Shown here piece after piece: positions 25,938 to 43,751 of a stretch of DNA of 64,000 bases (the first letter of the stretch is position 1; each line of letters begins with the position of its first letter). Origin of the DNA: Clostridia bacterium (GTDB lineage Bacteria > Bacillota > Clostridia > Oscillospirales > CAG-272); NCBI GenBank assembly GCA_017461475.1, contig JAFTXX010000005.1, positions 29,918 through 93,917 of the forward strand. The letters are read 5' to 3'. The notes beneath the pieces were generated by a model that saw nothing but the letters and a program-made list of their open reading frames with translations, did not search any database and had not been told where the DNA came from. A program made the translations under genes and the position numbers.

Positions 25938-26013
25938 CTGGGTGTGGCGCAGTTGGTAGCGCGCTACCTTGGGGTGGTAGAGGCCGCAAGTTCAAGTCTT
26001 GTCACTCAGACCA
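25938..26013 (+). tRNA. tRNA-Pro (anticodon GGG), CCA encoded
   Basis: Hand-folded cloverleaf. Acceptor CTGGGTG/CACTCAG; D arm GCGC-AGTTGGTA-GCGC; anticodon arm CTACC-TTGGGGT-GGTAG; T arm GCAAG-TTCAAGT-CTTGT; discriminator A plus CCA. 76 nt. Confidence 0.9.
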
Positions 26014-28995: not shown

Positions 28996-29035
28996 CAAAA
29001 ATACCAAGTTCACGGTGTGAACTTGGTATTTTTTA
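28996..29035 (-). terminator. Intrinsic terminator after apbE
   Basis: ATACCAAGTTCAC-GGT-GTGAACTTGGTAT flanked by A- and T-runs. Abuts the stop codon. Confidence 0.85.
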
Positions 29036-30064
29036 CTTCATATATTTTTCAAATCCTGCGGAGTATTTTATTTCGCCTGTGGGGAGTACCCACATGGCTT
29101 CGACGTTTTCGAGGGAATCAACAAGCGCACTGCCCTCCTCTGCGCTCATACAGAAAAGCGCTGTGGAAAGTGCATCTCCGAGGGCGGAACTGTCGCATAT
29201 GACAGAGACCGAGCGGAAGTTTTCACCGGGCATGAGCGTTTCGGGGTCGATGATGTGATGATAGGCTTTGCCGTCGACGTAGTAGTACCGCTGGTATGAA
29301 CCGCTTGTGACTACCGCTTCGCTTTCGACTGCAAGGTAAGCAAGATATGCTTCATCTTCGCTTTCGGCATCGGGGTTCTCTATGCCGACTGTCCATTTTG
29401 TGCCGTCCGGACGTGCGCCTACGGCGCGGACATTGCCGCCCACATTGAGAAGATAGCCGCTGATTTCCTTTTCTTCAAGGCTTTTTGCAACCATTTCCAC
29501 CGCGTAGCCCTTGGCTATGGCGCCGACATCAAGAGACATTTCACCGTCAAGGAGAGTAACTGTATTATTATCTTCGTCAATAATTACTTTTTCAATGTCG
29601 GTATGCAGTGACGCGGCTTTAAGTTTTTCCATATCGGGGAGAGCCGCTGACTCGGGGTGGCGCTCACCGTGGGTGCGTGCATTGTGCCAAAGCGAGAGCA
29701 CACTGCCCATTGCAACATTTGTATTCCCGTTTGTCAAAGTATATGCCTCTTTTGAAAAAGCGAGCATATCAGTAATTCTTTCATCAACTTCTACGGTGCC
29801 GTCGGAGTGATTGACGGTGTAAAGATTAGTGAGCCCGTCATAGTGATTATAGATATTATAAAGTCGGTGATACTCTGTAAATTGTGCGCTGATATCGGCG
29901 CAGACTGCGTCGAAATCCTCTTTGTTGTCGGCATAGCCGACAATTGTGGTGGCGGTGTCGAACCAGTCAAAATAGTACGCGGTGAATTTTTCGGGTGTTT
30001 TTTCCCCGCATGAGGAAAAAAGCAGGATTAAAACCGCCGAGGCGACTATTATAAATTTTCTCAT
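29033..30064 (-). CDS. apbE: FAD:protein FMN transferase (ApbE), lipoprotein
   Basis: Lipobox LLFSSC. ApbE motifs DVGAIAKGYA, TSGSYQRYY and GKAYHHIIDPETL. Confidence 0.9.
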   Translation of the reverse strand: MRKFIIVASAVLILLFSSCGEKTPEKFTAYYFDWFDTATTIVGYADNKEDFDAVCADISAQFTEYHRLYNIYNHYDGLTNLYTVNHSDGTVEVDERITDMLAFSKEAYTLTNGNTNVAMGSVLSLWHNARTHGERHPESAALPDMEKLKAASLHTDIEKVIIDEDNNTVTLLDGEMSLDVGAIAKGYAVEMVAKSLEEKEISGYLLNVGGNVRAVGARPDGTKWTVGIENPDAESEDEAYLAYLAVESEAVVTSGSYQRYYYVDGKAYHHIIDPETLMPGENFRSVSVICDSSALGDALSTALFCMSAEEGSALVDSLENVEAMWVLPTGEIKYSAGFEKYMK

Positions 30065-30087: not shown

Positions 30088-30115
30088 AAAAAGGGACGCC
30101 GAGGCATCCCTTTTT
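30088..30115 (-). terminator. Intrinsic terminator after the duplicated lipoprotein gene
   Basis: Minus strand reads AAAGGGA-(10-nt loop)-TCCCTTT followed by TT. Confidence 0.55.
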
Positions 30116-30132: not shown

Positions 30133-31152
30133 TTACTGAGCTGCCTTTACCATAGCTGCTGCCATGTCGGTAATGCCGATAGTGCAACCTGCGGTCTGTA
30201 CATCCTCTACGCCGTAGCCGTCAACAACGAGTGCCGCAACTTCGGTAGCGGTGAGACCTGTGCATGCGGTATTGAATGCAGCAGCCTGCTCGTTCCACTC
30301 GAGAACTTTGCCGTCGCCGTTGAGGTCTGCGCCGTATGCTGCCATACCGTAATCTGCGCCCTTCTCAAGTTTGGTGAGAATCTCTGCAGCGGTATCGGTG
30401 GTTGCTTCGCCGAGAGCGGTGAAGGTAACTTCTGCTACTGCAACATCGGTTGCGCAAGCGGTAATCTTGCCGTCAGCGTCGGTTGCTGCAGCCGCTACGG
30501 TGATGTCTACTTCGATAGAACCTTCTGCGTCTGCGGTAGCATCGGTAGCGGATGCGGAAGTAACAACGCCTACCTTAACTGTATCGGTTGCTTTTGCAGT
30601 GGACTCTGCCGCGTTTGCAACTGCCTTTTCAACAGCCTTGATGTAATCGGAAATACCGATAGTGCAACCTGCGGTCTGAACTTCTTCAGTGCCGTAGTAA
30701 CCGTCAACAACGAGAGCCTTTACTTCATCAACGGTCTTGCCGACAACAACGCCTTCAAGAGCGTCAGCCTGCTCGTTCCACTCGAGAACTTTGCCGTCGC
30801 CGTTGAGGTCTGCGCCGTATGCAGCCATACCGTAGTCGGTGCCGAGTTCTGCCTTGGTCTTGAACGCATCTGCAACAACAGCCGCACCTGCGGAAGTGTA
30901 CTCTACAGAGATGTCTGCGCAGTCAATGTCGCAAGCAACGATTTTGCCGTCAGCGTCAACGAGAACTGCAGCAACAGTTGCAAGAACTTCGCCTGCGCCG
31001 TTGGTTTCGCCGTCAGCGGAGGTTGCTTCACCGTAGTAGGTGTAAACACCCATGCCGAAATTAACATTTGCAGCCTCTGCTTCAGAGCCGCAAGAAACGA
31101 GGGTAGTAAGTGCCATAAGCACTACCAATGCAATGCTGAGAATCTTTTTCAT
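30133..31152 (-). CDS. Tandem-duplicated lipoprotein with FMN_bind-like repeats (non-canonical AGCT motif)
   Basis: Lipobox LVSC. Two roughly 160-aa repeats each contain DADGKI(V/T)AC, DYGMAAYGADLNGDGKVLEWNEQA and VQTAGCTIGI(S/T)D. There is a 69-nt intragenic DNA repeat with 1 mismatch (30283-30351 vs 30766-30834). Confidence 0.5.
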   Translation of the reverse strand: MKKILSIALVVLMALTTLVSCGSEAEAANVNFGMGVYTYYGEATSADGETNGAGEVLATVAAVLVDADGKIVACDIDCADISVEYTSAGAAVVADAFKTKAELGTDYGMAAYGADLNGDGKVLEWNEQADALEGVVVGKTVDEVKALVVDGYYGTEEVQTAGCTIGISDYIKAVEKAVANAAESTAKATDTVKVGVVTSASATDATADAEGSIEVDITVAAAATDADGKITACATDVAVAEVTFTALGEATTDTAAEILTKLEKGADYGMAAYGADLNGDGKVLEWNEQAAAFNTACTGLTATEVAALVVDGYGVEDVQTAGCTIGITDMAAAMVKAAQ

Positions 31153-31224
31153 GTCTTTTCTCCTTTAGAATAAATTTTTACCACAGAAATTATGCCACAA
31201 CGGACATACTTTGTCAAGAGTTTA

Positions 31225-31719
31225 TCAATACTTTTTAAGGCGCTCTGTCAAAAACGCGCCCGCTATACCTATAAACACTCCCGCGAGCGTACCGCTTATC
31301 GCAAGTATAAACATATAGTACCCGATTTCGGCAGTTTCCAGAAGGAGCATGGCAACAAGAATTTGCCCGAGATTGTGCATGACCCCGCCGGCGACACTTA
31401 CACCTACGGTGGAAAATTTGTCGGTCTTTTTTAAAAGCGCCATAACGGTAAGACTGAGAGCCGCGCCGGCAAGGCTGTAGATGAATGTTGACGGGTTGAA
31501 CAAAAGTGCCATTATTATCAGACGGATAAATGACGCCGCCGCGGCACTGCCTGCACCGTATTTATAAAGCAGAACTATAATAACGATATTGGGTAGTCCG
31601 ACCTTGATTCCGGGAACGGCGGAATATATCGGCGGAAGCAGCATTTCTATATATGAAAGAATGACGGCAACCGCGCTTATCACGCCTATAAATGTAATTC
31701 TTTTGACACGGTTATTCAT
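31225..31719 (-). CDS. Gx transporter family protein (Hpre_diP_synt_I / PF07456-like)
   Basis: 164 aa, about 5 TM helices. Motifs VPGIKVGLPNIV, SLAGAALS and GVSVAGGVMHNLGQILVA are typical of this family. Confidence 0.75.
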   Translation of the reverse strand: MNNRVKRITFIGVISAVAVILSYIEMLLPPIYSAVPGIKVGLPNIVIIVLLYKYGAGSAAAASFIRLIIMALLFNPSTFIYSLAGAALSLTVMALLKKTDKFSTVGVSVAGGVMHNLGQILVAMLLLETAEIGYYMFILAISGTLAGVFIGIAGAFLTERLKKY

Positions 31720-32090
31720 TACGCCACCATATCAAGCCCTGTATCGCTTGCCTTTTCCGATTTTACAGTAACTACTACACCGTGAGGGAGACAGGTTATC
31801 GTCTCTCCAATGCGTGATATTGGTGTGTGATCGACACATATGCCGTCGGGACAATTTGCTTCCTTAATATATGCTTTGCCGTCCGCAATAACAAGAGTAT
31901 TTACACCGCCGTCGGTTTCTATCACAAATTCGGTATCGGTATCAAGCGGAAAACGGGCAGTTTCCTCACCGTTTATGAGTACCACGGCAAAATCGCCCTG
32001 GCGGCTTAATGTTTTAAACAGCAGAAGTCCTGCTACTGCTGCGAGTAACAGGACTGCCGTAAGTATTATATCATTGCGTCTTTTTGACAT
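31719..32090 (-). CDS. NusG domain II-containing membrane-anchored protein (DUF1312)
   Basis: N-terminal TM helix, then ...NTLVIADGKAYIKEANCPDGICVDHTPISRIGETITCLPHGVVVTV (CPDxxC...CLP signature). Confidence 0.75.
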   Translation of the reverse strand: MSKRRNDIILTAVLLLAAVAGLLLFKTLSRQGDFAVVLINGEETARFPLDTDTEFVIETDGGVNTLVIADGKAYIKEANCPDGICVDHTPISRIGETITCLPHGVVVTVKSEKASDTGLDMVA

Positions 32091-32926: not shown

Positions 32927-33526
32927 TTAAGCAAACAGGTTTTCAACGATTCCCGCAAAGCCGAAGAATGCAAGAGATACAAACGACGCCGCTATAAGAG
33001 TTACGGGAAGACCTTTGAGACTTTCGGGAACTTCGCTCTCGTCGATGTATGTACGGATGCCCGAAAACATTACCATTGCAAGGAGGAAGCCGAGGCCGCA
33101 TCCGAGCGAGGACACCATGGATTCCAGGAAGTTGTATCCGTCGGTGATGTTGTTGATGGTAACGCCGAGTACCGCGCAGTTGGTGGTGATAAGCGGCAGA
33201 TAAACGCCGAGGCTCTTGTGAAGCGCGGGGATGAACTTTTTGAGCAGTATTTCAACGAACTGCACGAGTGACGCAATAACGAGGATAAATACAATAGTCT
33301 GGAGATATCCGAGACCGTTTGCGTCAAGGATGTAATACTGGAGCGGATATGTCACCGCGGTTGCCATGAGCATGACAAACGTAACGGAAACACCCATGCC
33401 GACCGCCTGATTGAGTTTCTTTGAAACTCCGAGAAAGGGGCAGATGCCGAGGAAACGGCTGAGTACGTAGTTATTTACAAGTACGGAACCCATGAGGATA
33501 ATTATAAGCGACTTGAAAGTTTCCAT
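32927..33526 (-). CDS. rnfA: Rnf complex subunit A
   Basis: 199 aa polytopic protein of the RnfA/NqrE family (NNYVLSRFLGICPFLGVS). Confidence 0.9.
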   Translation of the reverse strand: METFKSLIIILMGSVLVNNYVLSRFLGICPFLGVSKKLNQAVGMGVSVTFVMLMATAVTYPLQYYILDANGLGYLQTIVFILVIASLVQFVEILLKKFIPALHKSLGVYLPLITTNCAVLGVTINNITDGYNFLESMVSSLGCGLGFLLAMVMFSGIRTYIDESEVPESLKGLPVTLIAASFVSLAFFGFAGIVENLFA

Positions 33527-34215
33527 TATTTATCCTCCTTTGCTTCGGTTGCGCATCCGCCGTGGCATGTGGATGCCGTGGGGCATCCTGCGCAGGAAAA
33601 TTCTTTTTTCTTGATAGCCTTACCATTGGTAATCTTATTTACAACCGCAATCATAATACCGTAAACAAGCATACCGCCGGGTGCCTGAGTCATAACGCTG
33701 ATTTTGTGAGTTGAGAAGAACGGAAGTGCTATGCCTGCGAAAGAGCCGTTTCCGAGCACCTCACGGATTGTCGAAATGGAGAGGAGTGCGAGTACAAAGC
33801 CGATACCCATGCCGATGCCGTCGAGCGCCGCCTTGCCTACGGTATTTTTGCCTGCGAACATCTCGGCTCTGCCGAGGATTATGCAGTTTACCGTGATAAG
33901 CGCAAGGTAGACGCCGAGCATTTCGTACATTGCGGGAAGATACGCGTGCATGAACATCTGCACAAGGGTAACAAATCCCGCGATAACTACGATGTAGCAA
34001 GGTATGCGAACCTCATCGGGAATGAGTTTGCGAAGAAGCGAGATGAATATGTTGGAGCAGATAAGCACCGCCATGGTGGCAAGTCCCATGCCTATTGCGC
34101 TGACCACAGATGTGGTGGTGGCGAGGGTGGGACAAGTGCCGAGGATGAGCACAAAAACGGGGTTTTCGCGTAAAATTCCTTTAAGGAGGATGGAAAGATT
34201 ATTCTGCTGTTTCAT
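33526..34215 (-). CDS. rnfE: Rnf complex subunit E, with a Cys-rich C-terminal tail
   Basis: ENPVFVLILGTCPTLATT RnfE/NqrD signature. ATG at 34215 with a GGAGG RBS lying inside the rnfG 3' end. Tail: KKKEFSCAGCPTASTCHGGCATEAKEDK. Confidence 0.9.
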   Translation of the reverse strand: MKQQNNLSILLKGILRENPVFVLILGTCPTLATTTSVVSAIGMGLATMAVLICSNIFISLLRKLIPDEVRIPCYIVVIAGFVTLVQMFMHAYLPAMYEMLGVYLALITVNCIILGRAEMFAGKNTVGKAALDGIGMGIGFVLALLSISTIREVLGNGSFAGIALPFFSTHKISVMTQAPGGMLVYGIMIAVVNKITNGKAIKKKEFSCAGCPTASTCHGGCATEAKEDK

Positions 34216-35380
34216 TGTTTGCACCTCCTGTAAGAACTGTTACCGCTTCAAATACGCGGGAAATTGCGGTCATGTAACCCTTTGTTGTTACGGTTGCACC
34301 GCTTACGCCGTCAACCTCGCCGTAAGTGTCGGCAGTCTTGCCGTTAAACTGTGAATAGAACGAAGGTTCGCCGCATGCGGCACCAAAACCGTCGGTCTCC
34401 TTTTGCGATGTTGTCTCGCAAGCGATAATCTTGCCTGCGGGAGTTACGCTTACCTTGATGTAAATGTACTCGCCGGATTTGGAATATTTATCGCCGTTAA
34501 TGCCGTAACCAGATGCTTTGAGTTCGAGTACATAGTTACCGCTTTCTGTAATGTATGCCGCGAGGACTGCCTCGGGCATGTCCGCGTAAGCGGTGATGTC
34601 AACGGGGGTAAGCACCCAAGAGAGAATTGTTGCTACGGCACTTGTTGCCACCGCCTTTTCCTCGGTGGTAATGCCCTCGCTGATGACCTTGCCGTTTGCA
34701 TCTGTTGCAATAAATTTGTCATTTACGCAAATAACATAGCCAACGCCGTTGTTTGCAGAGTATGCGCCCTCGATACCCTCGATTGTATCAAGCATAAACA
34801 CAGATGTAAAGCCGTCTGCTTCGGGAAGTGCCGCCGCGAGATTTTCTGCGAAAATCTCTTCCTCGGTCTTTGCAGCTTCGCCGCCGCCGAGAATAATTGC
34901 CGCGTTGAGCGCGTCACGCACCGCCGAGCGATATCCGCCGGTGGTTTTGGTTGCGCCCGAAACAGTGTCTATGGTATCAATAGTGTCAATGGTAGCACCG
35001 GTAACGTTTTCGCCGTAGGTCTTTTCGTAGCCGTAAGTTTCTTCGCTGGAGATGCAGGTTGCACCGGTAACTGTACCGTCAGCAGAAACACCGACCATAA
35101 TAATCATATTGGGGCTGAGACCCGTGGCATTGAGTTTTACCACAACGCCGCCGCTTGCCTCGGTATACGCTTCCACAACGCTTGCGGGAAGTTCATACTC
35201 AGCAAGGTCTACAGCGGTGAAGTCTGTACCGTCCGGCATAACGACAAGCAGAGCGTCGTTTGCCGCGGAGGATTCATTTTGTGCGATTACGGGAGCGGTG
35301 ATATAATTTGCCGCGGCGAGCATAACCGCGATTACCGCGCAGATAAGAGTGAGGGAAAGTATGCACTTTATGTACTTCAT
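34199..35380 (-). CDS. rnfG: Rnf complex subunit G, about twice the usual length, with two FMN-binding domains
   Basis: 393 aa. N-terminal TM anchor. First FMN_bind domain ends at DTVSGATKTTGGY (aa 141-144). A second FMN_bind domain ends at DGVSGATVTTKGY (aa 360-363). Confidence 0.85.
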   Translation of the reverse strand: MKYIKCILSLTLICAVIAVMLAAANYITAPVIAQNESSAANDALLVVMPDGTDFTAVDLAEYELPASVVEAYTEASGGVVVKLNATGLSPNMIIMVGVSADGTVTGATCISSEETYGYEKTYGENVTGATIDTIDTIDTVSGATKTTGGYRSAVRDALNAAIILGGGEAAKTEEEIFAENLAAALPEADGFTSVFMLDTIEGIEGAYSANNGVGYVICVNDKFIATDANGKVISEGITTEEKAVATSAVATILSWVLTPVDITAYADMPEAVLAAYITESGNYVLELKASGYGINGDKYSKSGEYIYIKVSVTPAGKIIACETTSQKETDGFGAACGEPSFYSQFNGKTADTYGEVDGVSGATVTTKGYMTAISRVFEAVTVLTGGANNETAE

Positions 35381-36294
35381 TTTCTGTCACCTCCGATTAT
35401 CTTGCGGGATGTCCATATATCGATATACGGAGTAAGAATGTTCATAAGAAGGATTGCAAACGAAACGCCCTCGGGGTAGTTGCCGAACATGCGAATCATA
35501 ACGGTGATAACACCTGCGAGCAAACCGAAGAGAATCTGTCCGCCCCATGTTGCGGGAGATGTAACATAGTCGGTTGCCATGAAGATAGCACCGATAAAGA
35601 GACCTCCCGAGAGGGTGTAAGCAAGCGCGGTCGCGGCGTTGAAATCAACAAGCACAAGTGTAAAGAGGAACACAGTGCCGATGAATGCAACAGGAAGATG
35701 CCAAGTGATAACGCGGCGAGCGATGAGGTAAACACCGCCAATGATAAGCGCGAGTGTGCAGGTCTCACCTATTGCACCGCCGTGGTTACCGAGGAACAAA
35801 TCAAGAAGAGATGTAGATGCCGCACCTGCGCTTAAGGGAGTTGCGCTTGAAACAGCGTCTACGGGGAATGCGGCAGTGCCCATCTGAGTAAATGCAATGA
35901 GCATGAACACGCGCGCGGTTATGGCGGGGTTAACGATATTTTTGCCGATACCGCCGAAGAAACATTTTACAACCACTATAGCAAAAACCGAGCCTACGAT
36001 TGCCTGCCATACGGGAATGTTTGCAGGGAGATTGAGCGCGATAAGAAGTCCCGTTACAACAGCACTGAAGTCATCTACCGACTGCTCTTTTTTAACAATA
36101 ACATTAAAAAGAAACTCGGAGAGGACTGCCGTGCCGACGCACACGCCGATAACGAGGAGCGCGCGGGCACCAAAGATAATTGCACCCGCAATTGCCGCAG
36201 GGAGAAGCGAGATTATAACATCAAGCATGACACGGCGAGTCGAATGCGAACTGTGAATATGCGGAGCCGCCGAAATATGAAGCATATTATCCAT
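35377..36294 (-). CDS. rnfD: Rnf complex subunit D
   Basis: HISAAPHIHS N-terminus, a flavinylation-site region DAVSSATPLS, polytopic. Confidence 0.9.
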   Translation of the reverse strand: MDNMLHISAAPHIHSSHSTRRVMLDVIISLLPAAIAGAIIFGARALLVIGVCVGTAVLSEFLFNVIVKKEQSVDDFSAVVTGLLIALNLPANIPVWQAIVGSVFAIVVVKCFFGGIGKNIVNPAITARVFMLIAFTQMGTAAFPVDAVSSATPLSAGAASTSLLDLFLGNHGGAIGETCTLALIIGGVYLIARRVITWHLPVAFIGTVFLFTLVLVDFNAATALAYTLSGGLFIGAIFMATDYVTSPATWGGQILFGLLAGVITVMIRMFGNYPEGVSFAILLMNILTPYIDIWTSRKIIGGDRK

Positions 36295-37606
36295 TGCGCT
36301 TTGCCTCCTCTCTTGCTTTTGCGTCGCGGAGCGCCGCTTTTGCGAGTTTGTGCGTCTGGATTATGGGTCTGTTTGCGGGACAGCGGTATGCACATGTGCC
36401 GCACTCCATACAAAGGTCTACGCGAAGTTTTTTAAGTTTATCGACGTCACCGAGGCGGTATGCATCCGCGATTGCCGCGGGGTTGAGACCGAACGGACAA
36501 AGATTGGTGCATGAGCCGCAGCGAATGCAGTTTGTCACCTTAATGGGAGTCGAATCCTTTTCGTTGAACGCAAGAATTGCATTGTTATTTTTAATAATCG
36601 GAAGTGAAAGCGACGGAACGGCAATACCCATCATGGGGCCGCCGTAAAGCACCTTACCGGGCGTTTCCTTAAAGCCGCCGGTGAACTCAAATACATCCTC
36701 AAGCGAAGTGCCGAGGGGAACGATAACGTTCATCGGATTCTTTACCGCGCTGCCGTCAACGGTGACGAGACGGTCAACGAGCGGAATACCCGTTCTTAAA
36801 TACTTACCGATTGCAGCAACGGTGGAGCAATTGATAACGATACATCCGACGTCAATGGGAAGTTTTCCGCCGGGGACTACTTTGCCCGTGACGTGGTAGA
36901 TCATCACCTTTTCACCGCCCTGCGGGTACTTTGACGGAAGCACCTTGACGCTTACCGCGTCATGCTTTGCCGCAATTTCCTGCATCTTGCGGATAGGTTC
37001 TTTTTTGTTGTTTTCAATGCCGAAAATTATCTTCTTTACACCGAGATATTTTTCAAACGCCTCTAATGCGAGTTCGATATCTTCAGCATATTCAAGCATT
37101 GCGCGAGTGTCGCTTGTGATATAGGGTTCGCACTCTGCCGCGTTGATGATAAGCTCTTCGACACGTTCGGTGTCAACGTCGAGTTTTACATATGTGGGGA
37201 ACCCTGCGCCGCCGAGACCGACGATGCCGCTCTTTTTGACCGCTTCAATGAAGCTCGCGCGGTCGTTTACAGAGGGTGGAGCGATAGACGGGTCATATGT
37301 CATTTCGCCGTCCGACTCAATGGTAACGGCAGGTGCAACGGAGCCGTTTGAGATGCCCATAGGTTCAATCTTTTTTACCGTGCCCGACACGGACGCATAT
37401 ACGGGAGACGAAATCACGCCGTTTTGCTCTGCAACGAGCGTTCCGACGTCGACATGGTCGCCGACCTTTACAACTACTGTCGCAGGGGCGCCGATATGCA
37501 TGGATGTGGGCAATGTAACTGCCTTTGGAGCATCCATTTTCACAGCCGCAATTTCAGCGGTGTTTTTTCTGTGAGGCAGATGGATACTGCGGAGGTTAAA
37601 AGCCAT
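36287..37606 (-). CDS. rnfC: Rnf complex subunit C
   Basis: GLGGAGFPT nucleotide/FMN motif and two 4Fe-4S motifs (CIRCGSCTNLCP, CMECGTCAYRCP). Confidence 0.9.
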   Translation of the reverse strand: MAFNLRSIHLPHRKNTAEIAAVKMDAPKAVTLPTSMHIGAPATVVVKVGDHVDVGTLVAEQNGVISSPVYASVSGTVKKIEPMGISNGSVAPAVTIESDGEMTYDPSIAPPSVNDRASFIEAVKKSGIVGLGGAGFPTYVKLDVDTERVEELIINAAECEPYITSDTRAMLEYAEDIELALEAFEKYLGVKKIIFGIENNKKEPIRKMQEIAAKHDAVSVKVLPSKYPQGGEKVMIYHVTGKVVPGGKLPIDVGCIVINCSTVAAIGKYLRTGIPLVDRLVTVDGSAVKNPMNVIVPLGTSLEDVFEFTGGFKETPGKVLYGGPMMGIAVPSLSLPIIKNNNAILAFNEKDSTPIKVTNCIRCGSCTNLCPFGLNPAAIADAYRLGDVDKLKKLRVDLCMECGTCAYRCPANRPIIQTHKLAKAALRDAKAREEAKRNG

Positions 37607-37970: not shown

Positions 37971-40139
37971 TTATTTAATAAGTGTTGCGGTATTGGTTGA
38001 TGCGTCCCATGTGATATTATCATCCAAAACGCCGAGGGCGTTTGCGATAGCACGTACGGGAAGGTATGTGCGATTGTTTTCGATAACCGCGGGAGAGTCG
38101 AGCGCAACTGTCTGTCCGTTTACGGTCATTGCGGGGGCATCTATTGTGACAACAATAGTGACGCTCTCGTTTGAAAGCGTTGCCGTGCGGGTTGACGCAT
38201 CCCACTTAATGCCGTCGTCGGTAATTCCGAAAGCGTTGGCAAGGAAACGGACGGGGAGCATTGTGCGGTTGTTGCGGTTTATCGGTGCGGCATCAAGATT
38301 ATTGGCAACGCCGTTTATATATGCAACATTTGAGCCTATTGTGAGTTCAACGACGCGCTTGCCGCCGAGATAGTTACTCAGAATATCGCCGCTGCCCTCG
38401 GTGTAGGTGATGACGGTTCCCTCTCCCGTAACGGTAAATTTCTTTTGTGCTTCTTCGGAAAGCAGTGCAATTGCGCCCTCATCAACTATGATTTTGTAAT
38501 GGCTACCGCTTGAAGATTTAAGCACCGCTTTATCGGTTACGGTGAGAGTAGCGCCGTTTTTAACACGGATAGTAGTTTGCCCCTCATCTTCAAGCAGGAC
38601 GATATCATCAAATATAACATCGCTTGAAATGATAAACGTGGTGTTGGGATTAAATCGGAATGAAGCTGATGCTTTATAATCCACACCGCCGTACACGGAT
38701 GTAAACGTGAGCGGTTTGGGAAGAGTGGGCATTGAATACTCATTATTTGCGCCCGTGCCGCCTATATAGGAGTTGCCGCTGACTACTACAGTGCCGCCGA
38801 CAGCAACACGCTTGAACACTCCGTTGACGTAACTCTTTACAGCTTTGTCTGCGCTTGTGCCGTCGTTTGAATTGTTTCCGTTTGCATAGTCGAGATAACA
38901 AACGGTGGTTTCTCTGACAACTTCAAATTCTTCGGTAACGTTATTATCAGCCTGACCTAAAACCGTGGCTTTTTCACCTATTACAATATTGCCCTCTCCG
39001 CTGACGGATGCAAATGTACCGCCGTTTATTATCGCGGTGGATCCCTCGGTGACAATAATCTTCATATATTCACCTTGGTTTGACATGGTGATAACCGATT
39101 CGTTAACTGTAAGAGTGGCTCCGCTTGTAACTATGACAGTGCACTGGGAATTTTCCTGAAAAAGGATAATGTCGTCAAACGTGAGGTCGCTTGCAACGGT
39201 AAGTGTTGCGCCGGGTTTCATCTTGAGAACACCGCTTGCGGGATTTGAGGCAGGCTCGGTATTTTTGTAATCCGTGCTGCCGTAATTTGCGGTAACGGTA
39301 GCCGCACCCGCAAGGCTCCACGCATAGTCGGTACCGATATAGAGTTTGCCGCAAACTACCAATGTGCCGCCTTTTTTCAAAATGCCTGCGACGCCGCTTC
39401 CGTCTGTGGTGCCAAGTCCCTGCTTGGGTGTGCTGTCTGTAAGACCGTCATTTGTATTTTTACCGGTGTTATAAGAAATATATGCAACCGGACCCGAGAC
39501 AGAAGGTGTCTCCTCTGCCGCATCCGCCTTTACAGTTGCTTTTGCTCCTATTGTAATGTTGCCGTCTCCGCTGACGGAATCGAAAATGCCGCCGTTTATG
39601 ACTGCGGCAGAGCCGCTTTCAACTACGATTTGCATATAGTGTCCGCTGCTTGTCATGGAAACAACTGTGTCGGTTACGGTGAGCGTAGCGCCGTTTGCTA
39701 CACGGATTGTGGTTTTTGCACTCTCCTGAAAAAGGATAATGTTGTCAAGCGTCAAGTCGCTTTCAACAGTAAGCGTGCAGTCGGGCTTAATCTTTATGAC
39801 GCCGCTTGCGGGATTTGTTGCGGGGGAGGTGTTTTTGTAATCCTCGCCGCCGTACACCGCGGTAATTACGGTTTCTCCGCTTGCGTTCCATGTATAATTG
39901 TCACCGACATAAATCTTGCCGCACGCAACCATTGTGCCGCCGTCTTTTATAAGGCTGAACGCGCCGTTTCCGCTTGCAGTGCCAAGACTTTGCTTGGGTG
40001 TGCTGTCTGTAAGACCGTTGTTTGAGTTGCTGCCCGTATTATAAGATATGTACGAAACATTCTCGACAGCGCACGCCGTAACGGAAAGGGCGGATATAAT
40101 AACAAGCGCAGTCAACAGCAAATAAAGAAATCTTTTCAT
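37971..40139 (-). CDS. Secreted protein: three beta-helix-like modules and C-terminal copper-amine-oxidase-N-like (stalk) repeats
   Basis: Signal peptide from the ATG at 40139 (AAGGAGA RBS). Three modules start (Y/L)xYxxGxNxNDG(L/T)(T/S)...; a 29-nt exact DNA repeat is shared between modules. C-terminal NRTMLPVRFLANAFG and NRTYLPVRAIANALG stalk-domain repeats. Confidence 0.65.
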   Translation of the reverse strand: MKRFLYLLLTALVIISALSVTACAVENVSYISYNTGSNSNNGLTDSTPKQSLGTASGNGAFSLIKDGGTMVACGKIYVGDNYTWNASGETVITAVYGGEDYKNTSPATNPASGVIKIKPDCTLTVESDLTLDNIILFQESAKTTIRVANGATLTVTDTVVSMTSSGHYMQIVVESGSAAVINGGIFDSVSGDGNITIGAKATVKADAAEETPSVSGPVAYISYNTGKNTNDGLTDSTPKQGLGTTDGSGVAGILKKGGTLVVCGKLYIGTDYAWSLAGAATVTANYGSTDYKNTEPASNPASGVLKMKPGATLTVASDLTFDDIILFQENSQCTVIVTSGATLTVNESVITMSNQGEYMKIIVTEGSTAIINGGTFASVSGEGNIVIGEKATVLGQADNNVTEEFEVVRETTVCYLDYANGNNSNDGTSADKAVKSYVNGVFKRVAVGGTVVVSGNSYIGGTGANNEYSMPTLPKPLTFTSVYGGVDYKASASFRFNPNTTFIISSDVIFDDIVLLEDEGQTTIRVKNGATLTVTDKAVLKSSSGSHYKIIVDEGAIALLSEEAQKKFTVTGEGTVITYTEGSGDILSNYLGGKRVVELTIGSNVAYINGVANNLDAAPINRNNRTMLPVRFLANAFGITDDGIKWDASTRTATLSNESVTIVVTIDAPAMTVNGQTVALDSPAVIENNRTYLPVRAIANALGVLDDNITWDASTNTATLIK

Positions 40140-40158
40140 AGTTTTCTCCTTGATAGGC

Positions 40159-42414
40159 TTACTTGATTCTTTCAAGTATGGCAACTACATCCGCCATACC
40201 TATGGAACCGTTGGCATCTACATCATAGTAACCGCTGTAGTCCGAGGAAGAGTTTACATTTTTCAAAACCATAAGCGCATCGGCAAGATTTTCAACGCCG
40301 TCGCGGTTTACATCGTAACGGTACTTGTTTGACGGAAGTTTTTGAGGTGTGCTTGACGGACCGCGTACGGTGAGGATGTCGGGACCGCCGTCTGGGTCTT
40401 CCACAAATTTGACGAGGTCAACGCAGACATCTCGCAGAGTACCGCCGTTATCCGGCACGGTGTGACGGTGATATACCATGTAAAGCTCTTCCCCGTCGGG
40501 AGAAGGAATCATCAGCGCATCACCGGGACCGTCAATTATATAGTTCCAGTTGAGAATAGGATTATAGTCGTATTTGACGTAGGGACCGAGCGGATTTTTT
40601 GAAACAGCGACCGCTTCGCCGTAGTGTCTGGAATAGGAGCCTGTTGCGTAAATGAGGTAATAATACCCGTCATGTTTCCATACAAAGCCGCCCTCACAAA
40701 GGCGTAGTGCGCCGTCGTTATCCCACTCGCGGTCAGGATATATAACGCGCGTTGCGGTCTCGGGCTTTGCGGTAACAACGCCGTCCTTTATGGTCACTTC
40801 CTCAAACCATATCGTTCCGCCCTCGTCGTAACGGGAGAAAGACATATAGGTTTTGCCGTCGTAACCGACAAACGGGTGTCCGTCGATTTCGGTTACATCG
40901 GGATTTATCGCAACAAGCGGGCCGTCGTGCGTGAACGGACCGTAAGGAGAGTCGGAAGATGCATAGTACACGCGTCTTGAGTTATCCGAGCCGAGCTGCT
41001 CTGCTGCGAAAAAGAGATAGAAAAGTCCGTCGCTTTCGTTATAGTAAACGTTGGGGCTCCACGCTGTTCTGCCGTTGACATTATTGTAAGCGATGGAATC
41101 CCATGTGAAAACAATGTTTCGGGGAGTAAAATGCGCAAGGTCGGGAGATGTGTACACACGGAAGATGTTTTCGCCGTCGTTGCCGGCGTAAACATAGAGG
41201 TAATATGTACCCTCATAGTAAAGCACGTCGGGGTCGGCACCGGGGCTTACGGTGTTAATGTATGTTTCCTCGGCGAGAGTAACCGTGCTGTCGCCGACGT
41301 TTAAGTTCTGCACTTTGCCGCTCTCGAGCCAAAGTCCGAATTTTCCGTCGGTGCCGTCAAGGTAAAACTCAAATTTGGGGAACGCATCTTCGCCCTCAAA
41401 ATAGTTGTCGTAATAAACAGACACAATTCCGCCGTGTACATCTACAGTAACATCGCAGAATCCCTCACGGATTATATTGGCTCTCTCTCCTAAGATTTTA
41501 AACACACCGTCTGAAATCTTGTAAAGAGTGACGCACTGTTCTTCCTCGTTTAATTCAAAGGCATAACCGTTTTTCTCGTCGGACATGCCGAAGTACAAAC
41601 GGGAAATATTTTTATTTGCAACAGAAAAACTAACTCTGTAGTCACCGGCAAGCGCTTTCTCGGAAAGCATTGCACCATTTCCGCTTGCGACAGCACCGTT
41701 TACGGTGATACCGCTTGCTTTGAAAGTATGTTCGCCTAAAGTTACTGTCCCGGTCATTTTCGGAAGTTCGTCATCCTCGAGAACAGTTACCTTGAAATTG
41801 TCAAATCTGCCCGCATCGGCATAATACTGGCGGAGACCGACGGTAGACGTAAATGTATCGTAAATATCGTTTTCGTGGTCACCGGGCTCGTATCTTATCT
41901 CCTGGAACAGAGTTTTTCCGTCAAGAGAAGTGGCGCGGAAGGTCATGGCGCCTTTGTATACACGAACAGAAAGGTGAAAGTCCCTGTCTTCTATTTTATT
42001 TGTACCGGGAGCAAAACTACCTCCCCAGCCTGTTTGGCTGAAATAGGCGATATATATTTTTTCACCTGTATTGTTTGTGGTCGCGGTATAACCGGAAAAA
42101 TACGAAGGTTCTTTTGTAAGGCTATCACTTGTTGCGCCGATGAGAAGACCGCCCATATTGTTGCATCCGAGATAGTCAACTTCTACTATGTAGTCCATTC
42201 CCTGATACTGCTTTGGGAACTCGTAAGCAATATATGCAGACGTTCCGCTGCCTACGGCTTTTACTCCGCCGTCCGACACCTGCATTGTGCCGCGCATCGT
42301 AAAATCGGAAAGGCTGCTGCTTGAAAAATCATTTTCGTAAATCACGGTTTCTTTAGCGCAAACCGAAACCGTCAGACATGCGAAAACAAGCAATGTAAAT
42401 AAAAATTTTTTCAT
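40159..42414 (-). CDS. GH43-family glycoside hydrolase with N-terminal LamG/DUF1080-like domains and a C-terminal dockerin
   Basis: Signal peptide from the ATG at 42414 (AAGGAGA RBS). GH43 blocks PGADPDVLYYEGTYYLYVY, AWSPNVYYNESDGLFYLFF and CEGGFVWKHDGYYYLIYATGSY. Dockerin DVNRDGVENLADALMVL...DVDANGSIGMADVVAIL. Confidence 0.8.
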   Translation of the reverse strand: MKKFLFTLLVFACLTVSVCAKETVIYENDFSSSSLSDFTMRGTMQVSDGGVKAVGSGTSAYIAYEFPKQYQGMDYIVEVDYLGCNNMGGLLIGATSDSLTKEPSYFSGYTATTNNTGEKIYIAYFSQTGWGGSFAPGTNKIEDRDFHLSVRVYKGAMTFRATSLDGKTLFQEIRYEPGDHENDIYDTFTSTVGLRQYYADAGRFDNFKVTVLEDDELPKMTGTVTLGEHTFKASGITVNGAVASGNGAMLSEKALAGDYRVSFSVANKNISRLYFGMSDEKNGYAFELNEEEQCVTLYKISDGVFKILGERANIIREGFCDVTVDVHGGIVSVYYDNYFEGEDAFPKFEFYLDGTDGKFGLWLESGKVQNLNVGDSTVTLAEETYINTVSPGADPDVLYYEGTYYLYVYAGNDGENIFRVYTSPDLAHFTPRNIVFTWDSIAYNNVNGRTAWSPNVYYNESDGLFYLFFAAEQLGSDNSRRVYYASSDSPYGPFTHDGPLVAINPDVTEIDGHPFVGYDGKTYMSFSRYDEGGTIWFEEVTIKDGVVTAKPETATRVIYPDREWDNDGALRLCEGGFVWKHDGYYYLIYATGSYSRHYGEAVAVSKNPLGPYVKYDYNPILNWNYIIDGPGDALMIPSPDGEELYMVYHRHTVPDNGGTLRDVCVDLVKFVEDPDGGPDILTVRGPSSTPQKLPSNKYRYDVNRDGVENLADALMVLKNVNSSSDYSGYYDVDANGSIGMADVVAILERIK

Positions 42415-42497
42415 ATCCCGTCTCCTTTTGTTAATTATCGCCAATTCCAATATATCACATTTATTTTTATAAAGCAATATAATAAATCGACATTTTT

Positions 42498-42560: not shown

Positions 42561-43751
42561 ATGAAAAAAGTATTTTTGCAAGTTTTTATTACAGTACTTT
42601 TAACTTTATCATTGGTTATCCCGTCTTTTGCTTCCGATGTGCACGAGCACTCATTCGGAGAGTGGAAAACAACTTCTCTGCCGACAAAATTCGACGCGGG
42701 CGAAAAAACCGCCGTGTGCAGCGTTTGCGGCATGCTTGAAGTGCGTGAAATAACGGCTGTAATAAAAATGACCGTGGGGCAATCCTCTTTCACCGTAAAC
42801 GGAGAGACAAAAAGCATGCACTGCGAACCTGTTATACGCAATGACAGAACCATGCTCCCTGTAAGATACGTCGCCGAAAATCTCGGTGCTGCCGTTTCAT
42901 GGAACACCGCTTCTTCTACCGCGGTGATAACAAACGGCAGTGCGGAAATAAAAATCACCATCGGCGACCATGCCGCTATGATAAACGGCGTGAGCGTCCC
43001 GCTTGACAGTCCTGCTTTCATCGAAAGCGACCGCACATATTTGCCCGTGCGTTTTATCGCCGAGAGCCTCGGCGCGGCGGTAGAATGGGACGGAGAGACA
43101 TCCACCGCGACCATCACAAACGAAGGCGGTATAGTTTCAAAAATTTTGGATGTGCCTTACATATATCAAGTGCGCGACTACCCCAACGGCTGTGAAAGCG
43201 TAAGCACGGTAATGGCACTGCAGTTTCTCGGGTTTGACATTGACGTTGACACATTTATAGACAGTTACCTTGATATGGGCTCCTCTCCCGTTGTCGGCGG
43301 CAAGGGGCCAGACCCGGATGAAGTTTACTGCGGCAATCCGCGGCTGCTCAGCGGCTGGGGCTGCAACTCGCCGGTTATTGTAAACGCGCTTAACAAATTT
43401 ATTGCCAAAGACAAGTACACTGTTTCGCAGTTTTACGGCAAATCGCTCGCCGAGCTTTGCGAGTATATCAACAGCGACATCCCCGTTATCATGTGGGCGA
43501 CGGTTGGCATGGTGAACTCAAGTTCAAGCGGATATTACGCAAAATGGACAACCGAGGGCGGTAAACAGATTTCATACAATAAGCGCCTGCACTGCCTCTT
43601 GCTTGTCGGATACGACGGTGAGTATTACTATTTCAACGACCCTATGAGCAAAGGCACAAACGGCGCAAGCCATGTCGGATACAAGAAAAGCGATGTTGAA
43701 AAAGCCTACGAGATACTCGGTATGCAGAGTATTGTAATTGAACCGAAGTGA
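42561..43751 (+). CDS. Secreted protein: two stalk (Cu-amine-oxidase-N-like) repeats and a C39-like cysteine peptidase domain
   Basis: Signal peptide. DRTMLPVRYVAENLG and DRTYLPVRFIAESLG repeats. C-terminal DYPNGCESVSTVMALQFLG with HCLLLVGYDGEYYYFNDP, a Cys/His pair. Confidence 0.6.
   Translation: MKKVFLQVFITVLLTLSLVIPSFASDVHEHSFGEWKTTSLPTKFDAGEKTAVCSVCGMLEVREITAVIKMTVGQSSFTVNGETKSMHCEPVIRNDRTMLPVRYVAENLGAAVSWNTASSTAVITNGSAEIKITIGDHAAMINGVSVPLDSPAFIESDRTYLPVRFIAESLGAAVEWDGETSTATITNEGGIVSKILDVPYIYQVRDYPNGCESVSTVMALQFLGFDIDVDTFIDSYLDMGSSPVVGGKGPDPDEVYCGNPRLLSGWGCNSPVIVNALNKFIAKDKYTVSQFYGKSLAELCEYINSDIPVIMWATVGMVNSSSSGYYAKWTTEGGKQISYNKRLHCLLLVGYDGEYYYFNDPMSKGTNGASHVGYKKSDVEKAYEILGMQSIVIEPK

What the first reader, a model, noticed from the sequence alone, without database searches (positions are those of the whole stretch)
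30133..31152. Duplicated lipoprotein next to ApbE: FMN_bind-like repeats with AGCT instead of SGAT
What the sequence shows:
- Lipobox LVSC.
- Two roughly 160-aa repeats whose layout parallels FMN_bind domains: ...DADGKI(V/T)AC..., a helical segment, then VQTAGCTIGI(S/T)D-x3-A(V/M)-x-KA.
- The Thr aligned with the flavinylated Thr of [S/T]GA[S/T] is retained, but its context is A-G-C-T.
- Each repeat also has an EF-hand/dockerin-like loop, DLNGDGKVLEW.
- A 69-nt DNA segment is repeated 483 bp apart with one mismatch, indicating recent duplication or gene conversion.

Established knowledge: ApbE-family transferases flavinylate extracytoplasmic FMN_bind domains. Listeria PplA is a two-domain flavinylated lipoprotein used for extracellular electron transfer.

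Inference: this may be a divergent ApbE client, or a cofactor carrier using Cys, that links Rnf, ApbE and the Gx/NusG_II pair into an undescribed extracytoplasmic redox module.
Basis: partly seen in the sequence, partly recalled or inferred. Interest (0 to 1): 0.65.

Follow-up and report, generated by a model that had tools for sequence, protein, structure and literature searches.

The report
Flavin-carrying lipoprotein beside the Rnf pump
This gene most likely encodes a membrane-anchored protein that carries two covalently attached flavins and takes electrons from the Rnf respiratory complex to the outside of the cell; it belongs to a large family that databases do not annotate but that has been briefly described, and its flavin-attachment site has an unusual spelling.

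Summary
ORF 30133-31152 (-) encodes a 339-aa lipoprotein (lipobox LVSC) with two ~158-aa repeats. Each ends in an invariant A-G-C-T just before the last helix.

No Pfam, NCBIfam or PDB match exists, but the family is large: at least 1657 clusters at 50% identity. Domains come in twos, fours, sixes and eights. The gene sits directly upstream of apbE in 75 of 78 related genomes and in all 8 divergent contexts examined.

Over 711 domain copies the Thr/Ser is kept in 707. The Cys is replaced by Val or Ala in whole subfamilies that are still ApbE-linked. Some copies carry the canonical D-L-A-S-G-A-T. A profile-profile comparison aligns AGCT onto the SGAT of FMN_bind (83% probability, P 1e-5; controls P above 0.17).

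The protein is therefore best read as an ApbE-flavinylated two-flavin carrier. It probably belongs to the "FMN-bind2" subtype (Huang et al. 2024). The Cys is not the cofactor-bearing residue.

The "Gx/NusG_II" neighbours are EetB/EetA homologues, a published FAD exporter known to colocalise with Rnf in Clostridia. The module is therefore largely described. The new element is the non-canonical motif, which nobody has tested. Foldseek found no structural match.

The parts
30133..31152 (-). Gene for the 339-aa lipoprotein with two FMN-bind-like domains
   Evidence: ORF. More than 3100 homologues. AF2 model pLDDT 91.7, pTM 0.87.
31090..31152 (-). Signal peptide and lipobox (residues 1-21, L-V-S-C21)
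   Evidence: Sequence. Cys21 invariant in alignment A1.
30610..31089 (-). Domain 1 (residues 22-181): three long beta strands followed by five helices
   Evidence: HMM domain boundaries. DSSP of the model.
30136..30609 (-). Domain 2 (residues 182-339)
   Evidence: Single-domain model pLDDT 94.7.
30661..30672 (-). A161-G162-C163-T164. Thr164 is the predicted FMN attachment site of domain 1.
   Evidence: Codons read. Invariant in A1. Aligned on SGAT of FMN_bind by hhalign.
30181..30192 (-). A321-G322-C323-T324. Thr324 is the predicted FMN attachment site of domain 2.
30793..30810 (-). D115-L-N-G-D-G120 loop of domain 1. An optional insertion, possibly cation-binding.
   Evidence: Present in 275 of 711 domain copies and deleted in 389. 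No significant EF-hand or dockerin hit.
30310..30327 (-). D276-L-N-G-D-G281 loop of domain 2
   Evidence: Same evidence as the domain 1 loop.
30282..30360 (.). Gene-conversion tract, copy in domain 2. It codes YGMAAYGADLNGDGKVLEWNEQA.
   Evidence: Longest such tract among 81 loci.
30765..30843 (.). Gene-conversion tract, copy in domain 1
31189..31217 (-). Promoter-like site (TTGACA, 17 nt, TG, CATAAT; 11 of 12 matches) just upstream of the lipoprotein gene
   Evidence: A consensus match only.
30088..30115 (-). Terminator-like hairpin (12 pairs plus a T run) between the lipoprotein gene and apbE
   Evidence: A consensus match only.
29033..30064 (-). ApbE flavin transferase, itself with a lipoprotein-type N-terminus (LLFSSC)
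   Evidence: Pfam PF02424 E 7e-72. Directly downstream in 75 of 78 loci.
31225..31719 (-). EetB homologue (PF07456), the substrate-binding subunit of the ECF-type FAD exporter
   Evidence: Pfam E 3.4e-34. PF07456 = EetB in PMC9973259. Directly upstream in 76 of 78 loci.
31719..32090 (-). EetA homologue (NusG_II, PF07009)
   Evidence: Pfam E 5.4e-28. Labelled EetA in Data Set S1 of PMC9973259.
32099..32914 (-). rnfB
   Evidence: Translation. The same position in L001 carries the FeS/Fer4 Pfam families. Synteny.
32927..34224 (-). rnfA (32927-33526) and rnfE (33526-34224)
   Evidence: PF02508 at the same positions in L001.
34199..35380 (-). rnfG, 393 aa with two canonical FMN_bind domains (DTVSGAT and DGVSGAT)
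   Evidence: Pfam FMN_bind E 6.6e-23, two stretches. Motifs. Both domains present in 69 of 69 loci.
35377..37606 (-). rnfD (35377-36294, carries DAVSSAT) and rnfC (36287-37606)
   Evidence: Synteny.

Best explanation
The gene encodes a surface-anchored electron carrier with two flavins. It is a member of a large, unannotated family of paired ~155-aa domains that are distant relatives of the FMN_bind domain of RnfG/NqrC. This is most likely the 'FMN-bind2' subtype of Huang et al. 2024.

Proposed mechanism, with the status of each step:
1. The protein is exported and lipidated at Cys21. (Sequence shows the lipobox; the rest is inferred.)
2. It folds into one rigid pseudo-symmetric two-domain unit. 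(AF2 prediction.)
3. FAD is exported by the EetA/EetB-type ECF exporter encoded immediately upstream. (By homology with the Listeria system.)
4. The ApbE lipoprotein encoded immediately downstream transfers the FMN moiety onto Thr164 and Thr324. These are the Thr of the A-G-C-T motifs, which sit four residues before the last helix. (Inferred from alignment, conservation and gene context.)
5. The two flavins receive electrons from the additional, second FMN_bind domain of the double-length RnfG. They pass them to an unidentified extracytoplasmic acceptor, or run in the opposite direction. This gives Rnf a side outlet comparable to PplA in Listeria extracellular electron transfer. (Inferred.)

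The Cys next to the Thr occupies the position of the Ala in the canonical S-G-A-T. It is most likely just a small buried residue.
For: Gene context
- apbE lies within 400 nt downstream on the same strand in 75 of 78 species-level loci, and EetB lies directly upstream in 76 of 78.
- In L053 the lipoprotein-apbE pair is inverted as a unit relative to rnf.
- In 8 of 8 divergent members (about 35-40% identity; 2, 4 or 6 domains) apbE is again the next gene. Two of these contexts have no Rnf nearby: P0257 and P0121.

Attachment residue
- Thr/Ser is kept in 548/551 plus 159/160 domain copies.
- The positions before it vary along a continuum that includes the canonical D-L-A-S-G-A-T, seen in P0168 and P0320-P0322.

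Homology to FMN_bind
- hhalign of the family against RnfG-type FMN_bind gives probability 82.6%, P 9.6e-6. It aligns AgCT on sGAT, GKT on GKT, and the last helix on the last helix.
- The 4-domain subfamily alone gives 79.6%, P 1.5e-5.
- Five column-shuffled controls and one reversed control give P 0.17-0.57.
- Two family members hit Pfam FMN_bind on a family domain just below threshold: P0244 at E 2.8e-4 and 21.9 bits against a cutoff of 22, and P0257 at E 0.029 as its top hit.

Domain fusions
- P0191, P0232 and P0241 carry one to three genuine Pfam FMN_bind domains in front of the pair.
- The extra FMN_bind domain appears in complementary places. It is on RnfG in the window and in 69/69 close loci. 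In Feifania hominis it is on the lipoprotein, and RnfG there has a single domain (182 aa).

Architecture
- Domains occur in 2, 4, 6 or 8 copies. The two-domain model has pTM 0.87. Both match the published description of FMN-bind2 (PMC11334425).

Tolerance of ApbE
- In a tested substrate, Ala-to-Val at position -1 keeps about 50% flavinylation and Asp-to-Ala has a minor effect (PMC12052999).
Against: - No flavinylation of an A-G-C-T site has been shown anywhere.
- The window protein keeps only Gly(-2) and Thr(0) of D-x-x-[S/T]-G-A-[S/T]. Position -6 is Val and position -3 is Ala.
- Pfam FMN_bind does not hit the window protein even at E 1. It also fails to hit 10 further divergent members, including those with SGAT.
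- The AGCT-type subfamily alone gives only 6% hhalign probability.
- Foldseek of the two-domain and single-domain models against the PDB returns nothing below E 0.0077, and no FMN_bind structure (3O6U, NqrC, RnfG) in the top 50.
- apbE is needed by RnfD and RnfG in any case, so adjacency in the window alone is weak evidence.
- The electron acceptor is unknown, and no reductase gene lies nearby.
- Identity with 'FMN-bind2' rests on a matching description. The reference sequences could not be retrieved.
Confidence: 0.7

Rival explanations
1. The protein binds flavin non-covalently. It would act as an FAD-holding or FAD-delivery protein that takes FAD from the EetA/EetB exporter and hands it to ApbE, and would not itself be flavinylated or carry electrons.
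For: It is always sandwiched between the exporter genes and apbE. The motif departs from the canonical ApbE site. There is no Pfam FMN_bind hit.
Against: Thr/Ser is near-invariant at exactly the residue that ApbE modifies, and some relatives carry the full canonical motif. Chains of 4, 6 and 8 domains, and fusions to genuine flavinylated FMN_bind domains, fit an electron wire better than a chaperone. Listeria manages FAD delivery with EetB/FmnA alone (PMC9973259).
Confidence: 0.12
2. The conserved Cys is the functional residue. It would carry a cofactor (cysteinyl-flavin, Fe-S or metal) or act as a redox-active thiol, and the Thr would be incidental.
For: Cys is invariant in both repeats among close homologues and present in 88% of the first 551 domain copies. 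Foldseek gave weak hits to the Fe-S scaffold ISCU, which also has a Cys at the start of its last helix (probability 0.72, TM 0.39).
Against: Over all 711 copies Cys is present in only 72%. It is replaced by Val (129 copies), Ala (61) and a few Thr/Ile/Met. Whole subfamilies without Cys keep apbE as the next gene: P0121, P0306, P0330, P0232 and P0168. There is only one conserved Cys per domain. The ISCU match is not significant (E 0.03, rmsd over 10 Å).
Confidence: 0.05
3. The protein is a non-redox surface lipoprotein, for example a calcium-binding structural, adhesive or solute-binding protein, that merely travels with the operon.
For: The DxNxDG loops resemble calcium-binding turns. The organism has true dockerin proteins nearby. 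There is no database annotation. P0334 and P0335 fuse the pair to a periplasmic binding-protein domain.
Against: The loop is absent from 389 of 711 domain copies and gives no significant EF-hand or dockerin hit. Linkage to apbE persists across about 35% sequence identity and different phyla, including Sphaerochaetaceae. The profile similarity to FMN_bind centres on the flavin attachment site.
Confidence: 0.08

Closest known systems
FMN-bind2 domain proteins (Huang, Meheust, Barquera and Light, mSystems 2024, PMC11334425)
   Same: Domain of about 160 aa. Occurs in even numbers (2, 4, with a 6x example). Extended beta-sheet that pairs two domains into a pseudo-symmetric unit with two predicted flavin sites. 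Associated with ApbE. Had to be found by BLAST rather than by the Pfam model.
   Different: The paper does not mention an A-G-C-T site or Rnf-operon lipoproteins. I could not retrieve its reference sequences (NTW96865.1, WP_312031774.1), so identity of the two families is inferred from the description, not shown by alignment. Flavinylation of FMN-bind2 was predicted in that paper, not tested.
Listeria monocytogenes PplA with FmnB, EetA and EetB (extracellular electron transfer locus)
   Same: A lipoprotein with two flavin sites, encoded together with an ApbE-type transferase and the EetA/EetB FAD-export genes. It is the last protein-bound carrier before external acceptors (PMC9973259).
   Different: The electron donor in Listeria is Ndh2 plus demethylmenaquinone. 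Here the operon is rnfCDGEAB, and no ndh2 or dmk gene is present in the region. Sequence relationship to PplA was not tested.
FMN_bind domain (Pfam PF04205) of RnfG / NqrC
   Same: Extracytoplasmic. Three strands then helices. Thr just before the last helix. The shared pattern G-K-T ... x-G-x-T ... A-V-x-x-A is aligned by hhalign at 83% probability. Same transferase gene in the operon.
   Different: About 155 aa instead of about 80-120, with a roughly 20-residue insertion (YGM..YG..EW.EQ) before the first helix. Obligate pairing. No Pfam hit. No Foldseek hit to solved FMN_bind structures. Motif is V-Q-T-A-G-C-T instead of D-x-x-S-G-A-T.
Multi-flavinylated RnfG / Rnf with a second extracytoplasmic outlet (Meheust et al., eLife 2021, PMC8238504)
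   Same: The window's RnfG has two FMN_bind domains. The paper proposes that such Rnf complexes feed alternative extracytosolic acceptors.
   Different: The paper does not identify the partner protein. The lipoprotein here is a candidate for it.

Membership tests
FMN_bind (PF04205) ApbE substrates | Match to the Pfam FMN_bind model above the gathering score | tested here: not met
   No FMN_bind hit for the window protein even at E 1. Only two relatives come close: P0244 at 21.9 bits against a cutoff of 22, and P0257 at E 0.029. Ten other divergent members give no hit.
FMN_bind (PF04205) ApbE substrates | Detectable remote homology by profile-profile comparison | tested here: inconclusive
   hhalign gives 82.6% probability, P 9.6e-6, with the attachment sites aligned. 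Controls give P 0.17-0.57. However, the AGCT-type subfamily alone reaches only 6%, and the FMN_bind profile was built mainly from RnfG sequences.
FMN_bind (PF04205) ApbE substrates | Flavinylation motif D-x-x-[S/T]-G-A-[S/T] | tested here: not met
   The window protein has V-Q-T-A-G-C-T twice, so only Gly(-2) and Thr(0) match. Relatives grade into the canonical form: DLAAGCT, DLASGCT, DLAASVT, DLASSAT, DLASGAT.
FMN_bind (PF04205) ApbE substrates | Thr or Ser conserved at the modified position | tested here: met
   707 of 711 domain copies.
FMN_bind (PF04205) ApbE substrates | Extracytoplasmic location | tested here: met
   Signal peptide with lipobox LVSC. Cys21 invariant.
FMN_bind (PF04205) ApbE substrates | apbE in the same gene cluster | tested here: met
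   75 of 78 close loci and 8 of 8 divergent loci have apbE as the next gene.
FMN_bind (PF04205) ApbE substrates | Fold superposable on solved FMN_bind structures (3O6U, NqrC, RnfG) | tested here: inconclusive
FMN_bind (PF04205) ApbE substrates | Covalent FMN phosphoester on the Thr | not testable with these tools
   Needs protein chemistry.
FMN-bind2 subtype (PMC11334425) | Domain of about 160 aa | tested here: met
   HMM length 160. Domains span 22-181 and 182-339.
FMN-bind2 subtype (PMC11334425) | Even number of domains per protein | tested here: met
   Of 271 proteins, 252 have 2 domains, 11 have 4 and 2 have 6. One further protein has 8. The few odd counts are mostly fragments.
FMN-bind2 subtype (PMC11334425) | Extended beta-sheet faces that pair two domains into a pseudo-symmetric unit | tested here: inconclusive
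   Three strands of 13-16 residues per domain, and pTM 0.87 for the two-domain model, fit this feature. I could not inspect the coordinates of the interface.
FMN-bind2 subtype (PMC11334425) | Sequence similarity to the reference proteins NTW96865.1 / WP_312031774.1 | not testable with these tools
   The accessions could not be fetched. Three cluster look-ups and two extra protein searches did not surface them.
PplA-type extracellular electron transfer system (Listeria) | Lipoprotein with two flavin sites encoded with apbE/fmnB, eetA and eetB | tested here: met
   Gene order NusG_II(EetA)-PF07456(EetB)-lipoprotein-ApbE. The flavin sites themselves are predicted.
PplA-type extracellular electron transfer system (Listeria) | Ndh2 and demethylmenaquinone genes as the membrane electron donor | tested here: not met
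   The operon upstream is rnfCDGEAB. No ndh2 or dmk gene lies among the annotated neighbours.
EF-hand / dockerin calcium-binding loop | Significant profile match and conservation of the loop | tested here: not met
   EF-hand_5 E 0.068, Dockerin_1 E 0.39, FG-GAP_3 E 0.067, all below cutoff. The loop is present in 275 and deleted in 389 of 711 domain copies.

The most novel reading that the evidence does not exclude
In the AGCT subfamily the Cys next to the flavinylated Thr could take part in the chemistry. It might form a second, thioether link to the flavin (a bicovalent FMN), or a flavin-thiol redox couple. Either would tune the potential of the flavin at the outlet of Rnf. That would be a new type of covalent flavin site built on top of ApbE flavinylation. 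The Val/Ala replacements in other subfamilies show that Cys is not needed by the family as a whole. They do not exclude a role specific to the Rnf-operon subfamily, where Cys is invariant in both repeats.
Probability: 0.08. Interest if true: 0.8.

Novelty: new variant of a known kind. Interest (0 to 1): 0.45.

Why it matters
If the two Thr are flavinylated, three consequences follow.

1. The accepted ApbE recognition motif, D-x-x-[S/T]-G-A-[S/T], is too narrow. Motif- or Pfam-based surveys of the flavinylated proteome then miss a family of at least 1657 sequence clusters, abundant in gut and rumen Clostridia.

2. Rnf in these organisms would be more than a closed ferredoxin:NAD+ ion pump. It would have a built-in route for electrons to leave or enter the cell through RnfG's second flavin domain and this lipoprotein. 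That bears on extracellular electron transfer, redox balance and oxygen or quinone handling by gut anaerobes.

3. Cultured carriers exist (Feifania hominis, Clostridium malenominatum), so the question is directly testable.

Tried and rejected
Searches that found nothing
- Pfam and NCBIfam scans of the window protein gave only sub-threshold noise.
- PDB sequence searches with the single sequence and with the profile gave nothing.
- Foldseek against the PDB, with the two-domain and the single-domain model, gave no significant match. The top hits (MHC class I, porins, ARC6) reflect the long sheet only.
- An Rfam scan of the whole window found only a tRNA, and no riboswitch in front of the operon.

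Ideas considered and dropped
- ISCU-like Fe-S scaffold. Considered because of Foldseek probability 0.72 and a Cys before the last helix. Rejected because the match is not significant, there is only one conserved Cys per domain, the Cys is replaceable, and the protein is extracytoplasmic.
- EF-hand or dockerin reading of DLNGDG. Rejected as a core feature because the loop is an optional insertion.
The significant hhalign alignment covers only the C-terminal ~100 residues and puts that turn on the family's F-x-x-x-G segment.

Attempts to tie the family to the published FMN-bind2 accessions
- Three cluster look-ups, a search with a 6-domain member and a search with a single-domain profile all failed. 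The profile search returned only short fragments.
- Scanning ten further divergent members, including SGAT-bearing ones, against Pfam gave no FMN_bind hit.
Full report
**What is there.** The minus-strand ORF 30133-31152 encodes a 339-aa protein that starts with a signal peptide and the lipobox L-V-S-C21.
- Its two halves (residues 22-181 and 182-339) are 61% identical over 111 aa, E 1e-37.
- A DNA tract of 79 nt is repeated 483 nt apart, at 30282-30360 and 30765-30843. The first 58 nt are identical and there is one mismatch in the first 70.
- Among 81 related genes, the longest exact inter-repeat match has a median of 14 nt and never exceeds 53 nt. The tract is therefore lineage-specific gene conversion within an old duplication.

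**Family.** Pfam, NCBIfam and PDB sequence searches give nothing significant. Yet the protein has over 3100 homologues in a word-indexed search and 1657 clusters at 50% identity in an exhaustive profile search. Almost all are unnamed and come from gut, rumen and digester Clostridia.
- An HMM of the single repeat finds 2 domains in 252 of 271 proteins, 4 in 11 and 6 in 2. One further protein has 8.
- AlphaFold2 predicts the two-domain protein with pLDDT 91.7 and pTM 0.87. Each repeat has three strands of 13-16 residues followed by five helices. The A-G-C-T lies four residues before the last helix. The single domain gives pLDDT 94.7.

**Gene context.** In the window the order on the minus strand is rnfC-D-G-E-A-B, NusG_II, PF07456, lipoprotein, apbE.
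- In 80 species-representative genomes (47-69% identity), apbE lies within 400 nt downstream in 75 of 78 loci where it could be seen. PF07456 lies directly upstream in 76 of 78. The full rnf operon precedes wherever the contig reaches.
- In L053 the lipoprotein-apbE pair is inverted as a unit.
- In eight divergent members, apbE is again the very next gene:
  - P0306, P0330 and P0168 (four domains) sit with apbE-rnfC-rnfD-rnfG.
  - P0172 (six domains, Sphaerochaetaceae) sits with apbE and rnf.
  - P0121 (six domains) and P0257 (two domains) have apbE but no rnf nearby.
  - P0232 (Feifania hominis) and P0285 sit next to rnf.
- The constant partner is therefore apbE, not Rnf.

**The motif.** Over 551 domain copies from the first two searches, the residue aligned with the last T of AGCT is Thr in 530 and Ser in 18. 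In 160 copies from the multi-domain subfamily it is Thr/Ser in 159.
- The Cys is far less constant. It is present in 485/551 and 26/160 copies, replaced mainly by Val and Ala.
- The variants form a continuum: AGCT, SGCT, ASCT, ASVT, SSVT, SSAT, TTAT and SGAT.
- Outside the window's own subfamily an Asp at -6 is usual. P0168 and P0320-P0322 read D-L-A-S-G-A-T, a perfect ApbE site.
- The window protein reads E-(E/D)-V-Q-T-A-G-C-T, so of the canonical D-x-x-[S/T]-G-A-[S/T] it keeps only Gly and Thr.
- Published mutagenesis of a real substrate reports that Ala-to-Val at -1 keeps about half of the flavinylation and that Asp-to-Ala has a minor effect (PMC12052999).
- RnfD in the same operon has D-A-V-S-S-A-T, so the local ApbE already has to accept variation at -2.

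**Relationship to FMN_bind.**
- hhalign of the family domain against a profile of RnfG-type FMN_bind domains gives 82.6% probability, P 9.6e-6. It aligns G-K-T on G-K-T, AgCT on sGAT, and the last helix on the last helix.
- The four-domain subfamily alone gives 79.6%, P 1.5e-5, with Asp on Asp and Thr on Thr.
- Five column-shuffled controls and one reversed control give P 0.17-0.57. The AGCT-only subfamily alone gives only 6%.
- Two members nearly reach the Pfam FMN_bind threshold on a family domain: P0244 at 21.9 bits against a cutoff of 22, E 2.8e-4, and P0257 at E 0.029. Ten others do not.
- Three members carry genuine Pfam FMN_bind domains fused in front of the pair.
- Against this, Foldseek of both models against the PDB finds no significant match and no FMN_bind structure in the top 50. 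The more sensitive libraries were not available.
- I therefore regard common ancestry with FMN_bind as likely but not proven. I do not file the protein under Pfam FMN_bind.

**What is already published.**
- Rivera-Lugo et al. 2023 showed that PF07456 is EetB, the substrate-binding subunit of an ECF-type FAD exporter that supplies the ApbE homologue FmnB in Listeria. Their data set labels NusG_II as EetA. They report eetB next to apbE in 2169 genomes and next to Rnf in 572 Clostridia genomes.
- Meheust et al. 2021 described RnfG proteins with several FMN_bind domains and proposed a second outlet to extracytosolic acceptors.
- Huang et al. 2024 described an 'FMN-bind2' subtype: about 160 aa, found by BLAST, occurring in twos and fours (with a 6x example), with extended sheets that pair two domains into a pseudo-symmetric unit with two flavin sites.
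- That description fits this family point by point. I could not retrieve their reference sequences to prove identity.
- No paper in the library mentions an A-G-C-T site, or this lipoprotein as part of the rnf operon.

**Most likely mechanism.**
1. The lipoprotein is anchored on the outer face of the membrane.
2. FAD exported by the EetA/EetB system is used by the neighbouring ApbE lipoprotein to attach FMN to Thr164 and Thr324.
3. The pair of flavins exchanges electrons with the second FMN_bind domain of the double-length RnfG and with an unknown external partner.

A domain-shuffling pattern supports the coupling. The extra FMN_bind domain is on RnfG in the window and in 69/69 close loci. In Feifania hominis it is on the lipoprotein, and RnfG there is single-domain. 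In L093 RnfD is fused to FMN_bind.

Steps shown here: lipobox, repeats, conservation, synteny, profile similarity. Steps inferred: flavinylation itself, the electron path and the acceptor. No candidate terminal reductase lies in the neighbourhood.

**Rivals.**
- A non-covalent FAD-handling protein fits the gene position. It does not fit the invariant Thr/Ser, the canonical sites in relatives, or the 4- to 8-domain chains.
- A Cys-borne cofactor is contradicted by Val/Ala replacement in ApbE-linked subfamilies.
- A calcium-binding or adhesive role is contradicted by loss of the DxNxDG loop in 389 of 711 domain copies and by the lack of any significant EF-hand or dockerin hit.

**Verdict.** The Cys-carrier alternative, the 'undescribed module' and the 'recent duplication' are not. 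The gene is a typical member of a large, database-invisible but briefly described domain family. What is new is the dominant non-canonical attachment motif in the Rnf-operon subfamily, and the identification of this lipoprotein as the probable partner of the two-domain RnfG. Interest is moderate.

Noticed in passing
window 34199-35380 (-); L087; L093: RnfG is double length (393 aa, two Pfam FMN_bind domains) here and in 69/69 related loci. In Feifania hominis (L087), RnfG is single-domain (182 aa) and the extra FMN_bind domain sits on the lipoprotein homologue instead. In L093, RnfD is fused to an FMN_bind domain. The extra flavin domain seems to migrate between partners.
   Followed up: partly
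window 31189-31217 (-) and 30088-30115 (-): A near-consensus extended -10 promoter-like site lies just upstream of the lipoprotein gene. A 12-bp hairpin with a T run lies between that gene and apbE. The lipoprotein may be transcribed on its own and more strongly than the rest of the operon. These are consensus matches only.
   Followed up: no
window 30282-30360 and 30765-30843: The 58-nt exact identity between the two repeats is the longest among 81 related genes (median 14 nt). L011 has a 53-nt tract in a different segment. Gene conversion between the repeats seems to recur sporadically.
   Followed up: yes
L084 13868-14302; L088 13871-14302; L090 12829-13260: In the four-domain subfamily the cluster is [4 domains]-apbE-rnfC-rnfD-rnfG, followed by a conserved 143-144 aa protein with no Pfam hit. 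rnfA, rnfE and rnfB are absent. This is a reduced, probably one-way Rnf-like module. In L084 it sits next to thioredoxin/AhpC-type and NapH-like Fe-S proteins.
   Followed up: no
proteins P0333, P0334, P0335: The domain pair also occurs fused to a Ser/Thr protein kinase (P0333) and to a periplasmic binding-protein domain, PF13407 (P0334, P0335). This suggests sensory uses of the same module.
   Followed up: no
window 35377-36294 (-): RnfD carries D-A-V-S-S-A-T as its presumed flavinylation site, with Ser instead of Gly at -2. The single apbE of the operon would therefore have to serve at least three different motif spellings.
   Followed up: no
window 37971-40184 (-) and 42561-43751 (+): A 737-aa secreted protein has three internal repeats of about 190 aa and a C-terminal copper amine oxidase N-terminal-type domain. 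A second protein has the same domain plus a C39-like peptidase. Huang et al. mention this domain (PF07833) as a dimerisation module of some multi-flavin proteins, but no flavin domain is seen here.
   Followed up: partly
window 40159-42477 (-): A GH43 glycoside hydrolase with a genuine type I dockerin (Pfam E 2.6e-5). The organism is likely a cellulosome-type fibre degrader.
   Followed up: no
window 25938-26010 (+): A tRNA gene, the only Rfam match at gathering threshold in the 64-kb window. No riboswitch precedes the rnf operon.
   Followed up: no
L091 13419-15368: In a Sphaerochaetaceae genome, the six-domain family member and apbE are followed by rnfC, rnfD and a 649-aa RnfG with only a weak FMN_bind hit. 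This RnfG may itself contain further unrecognised domains of this family.
   Followed up: no
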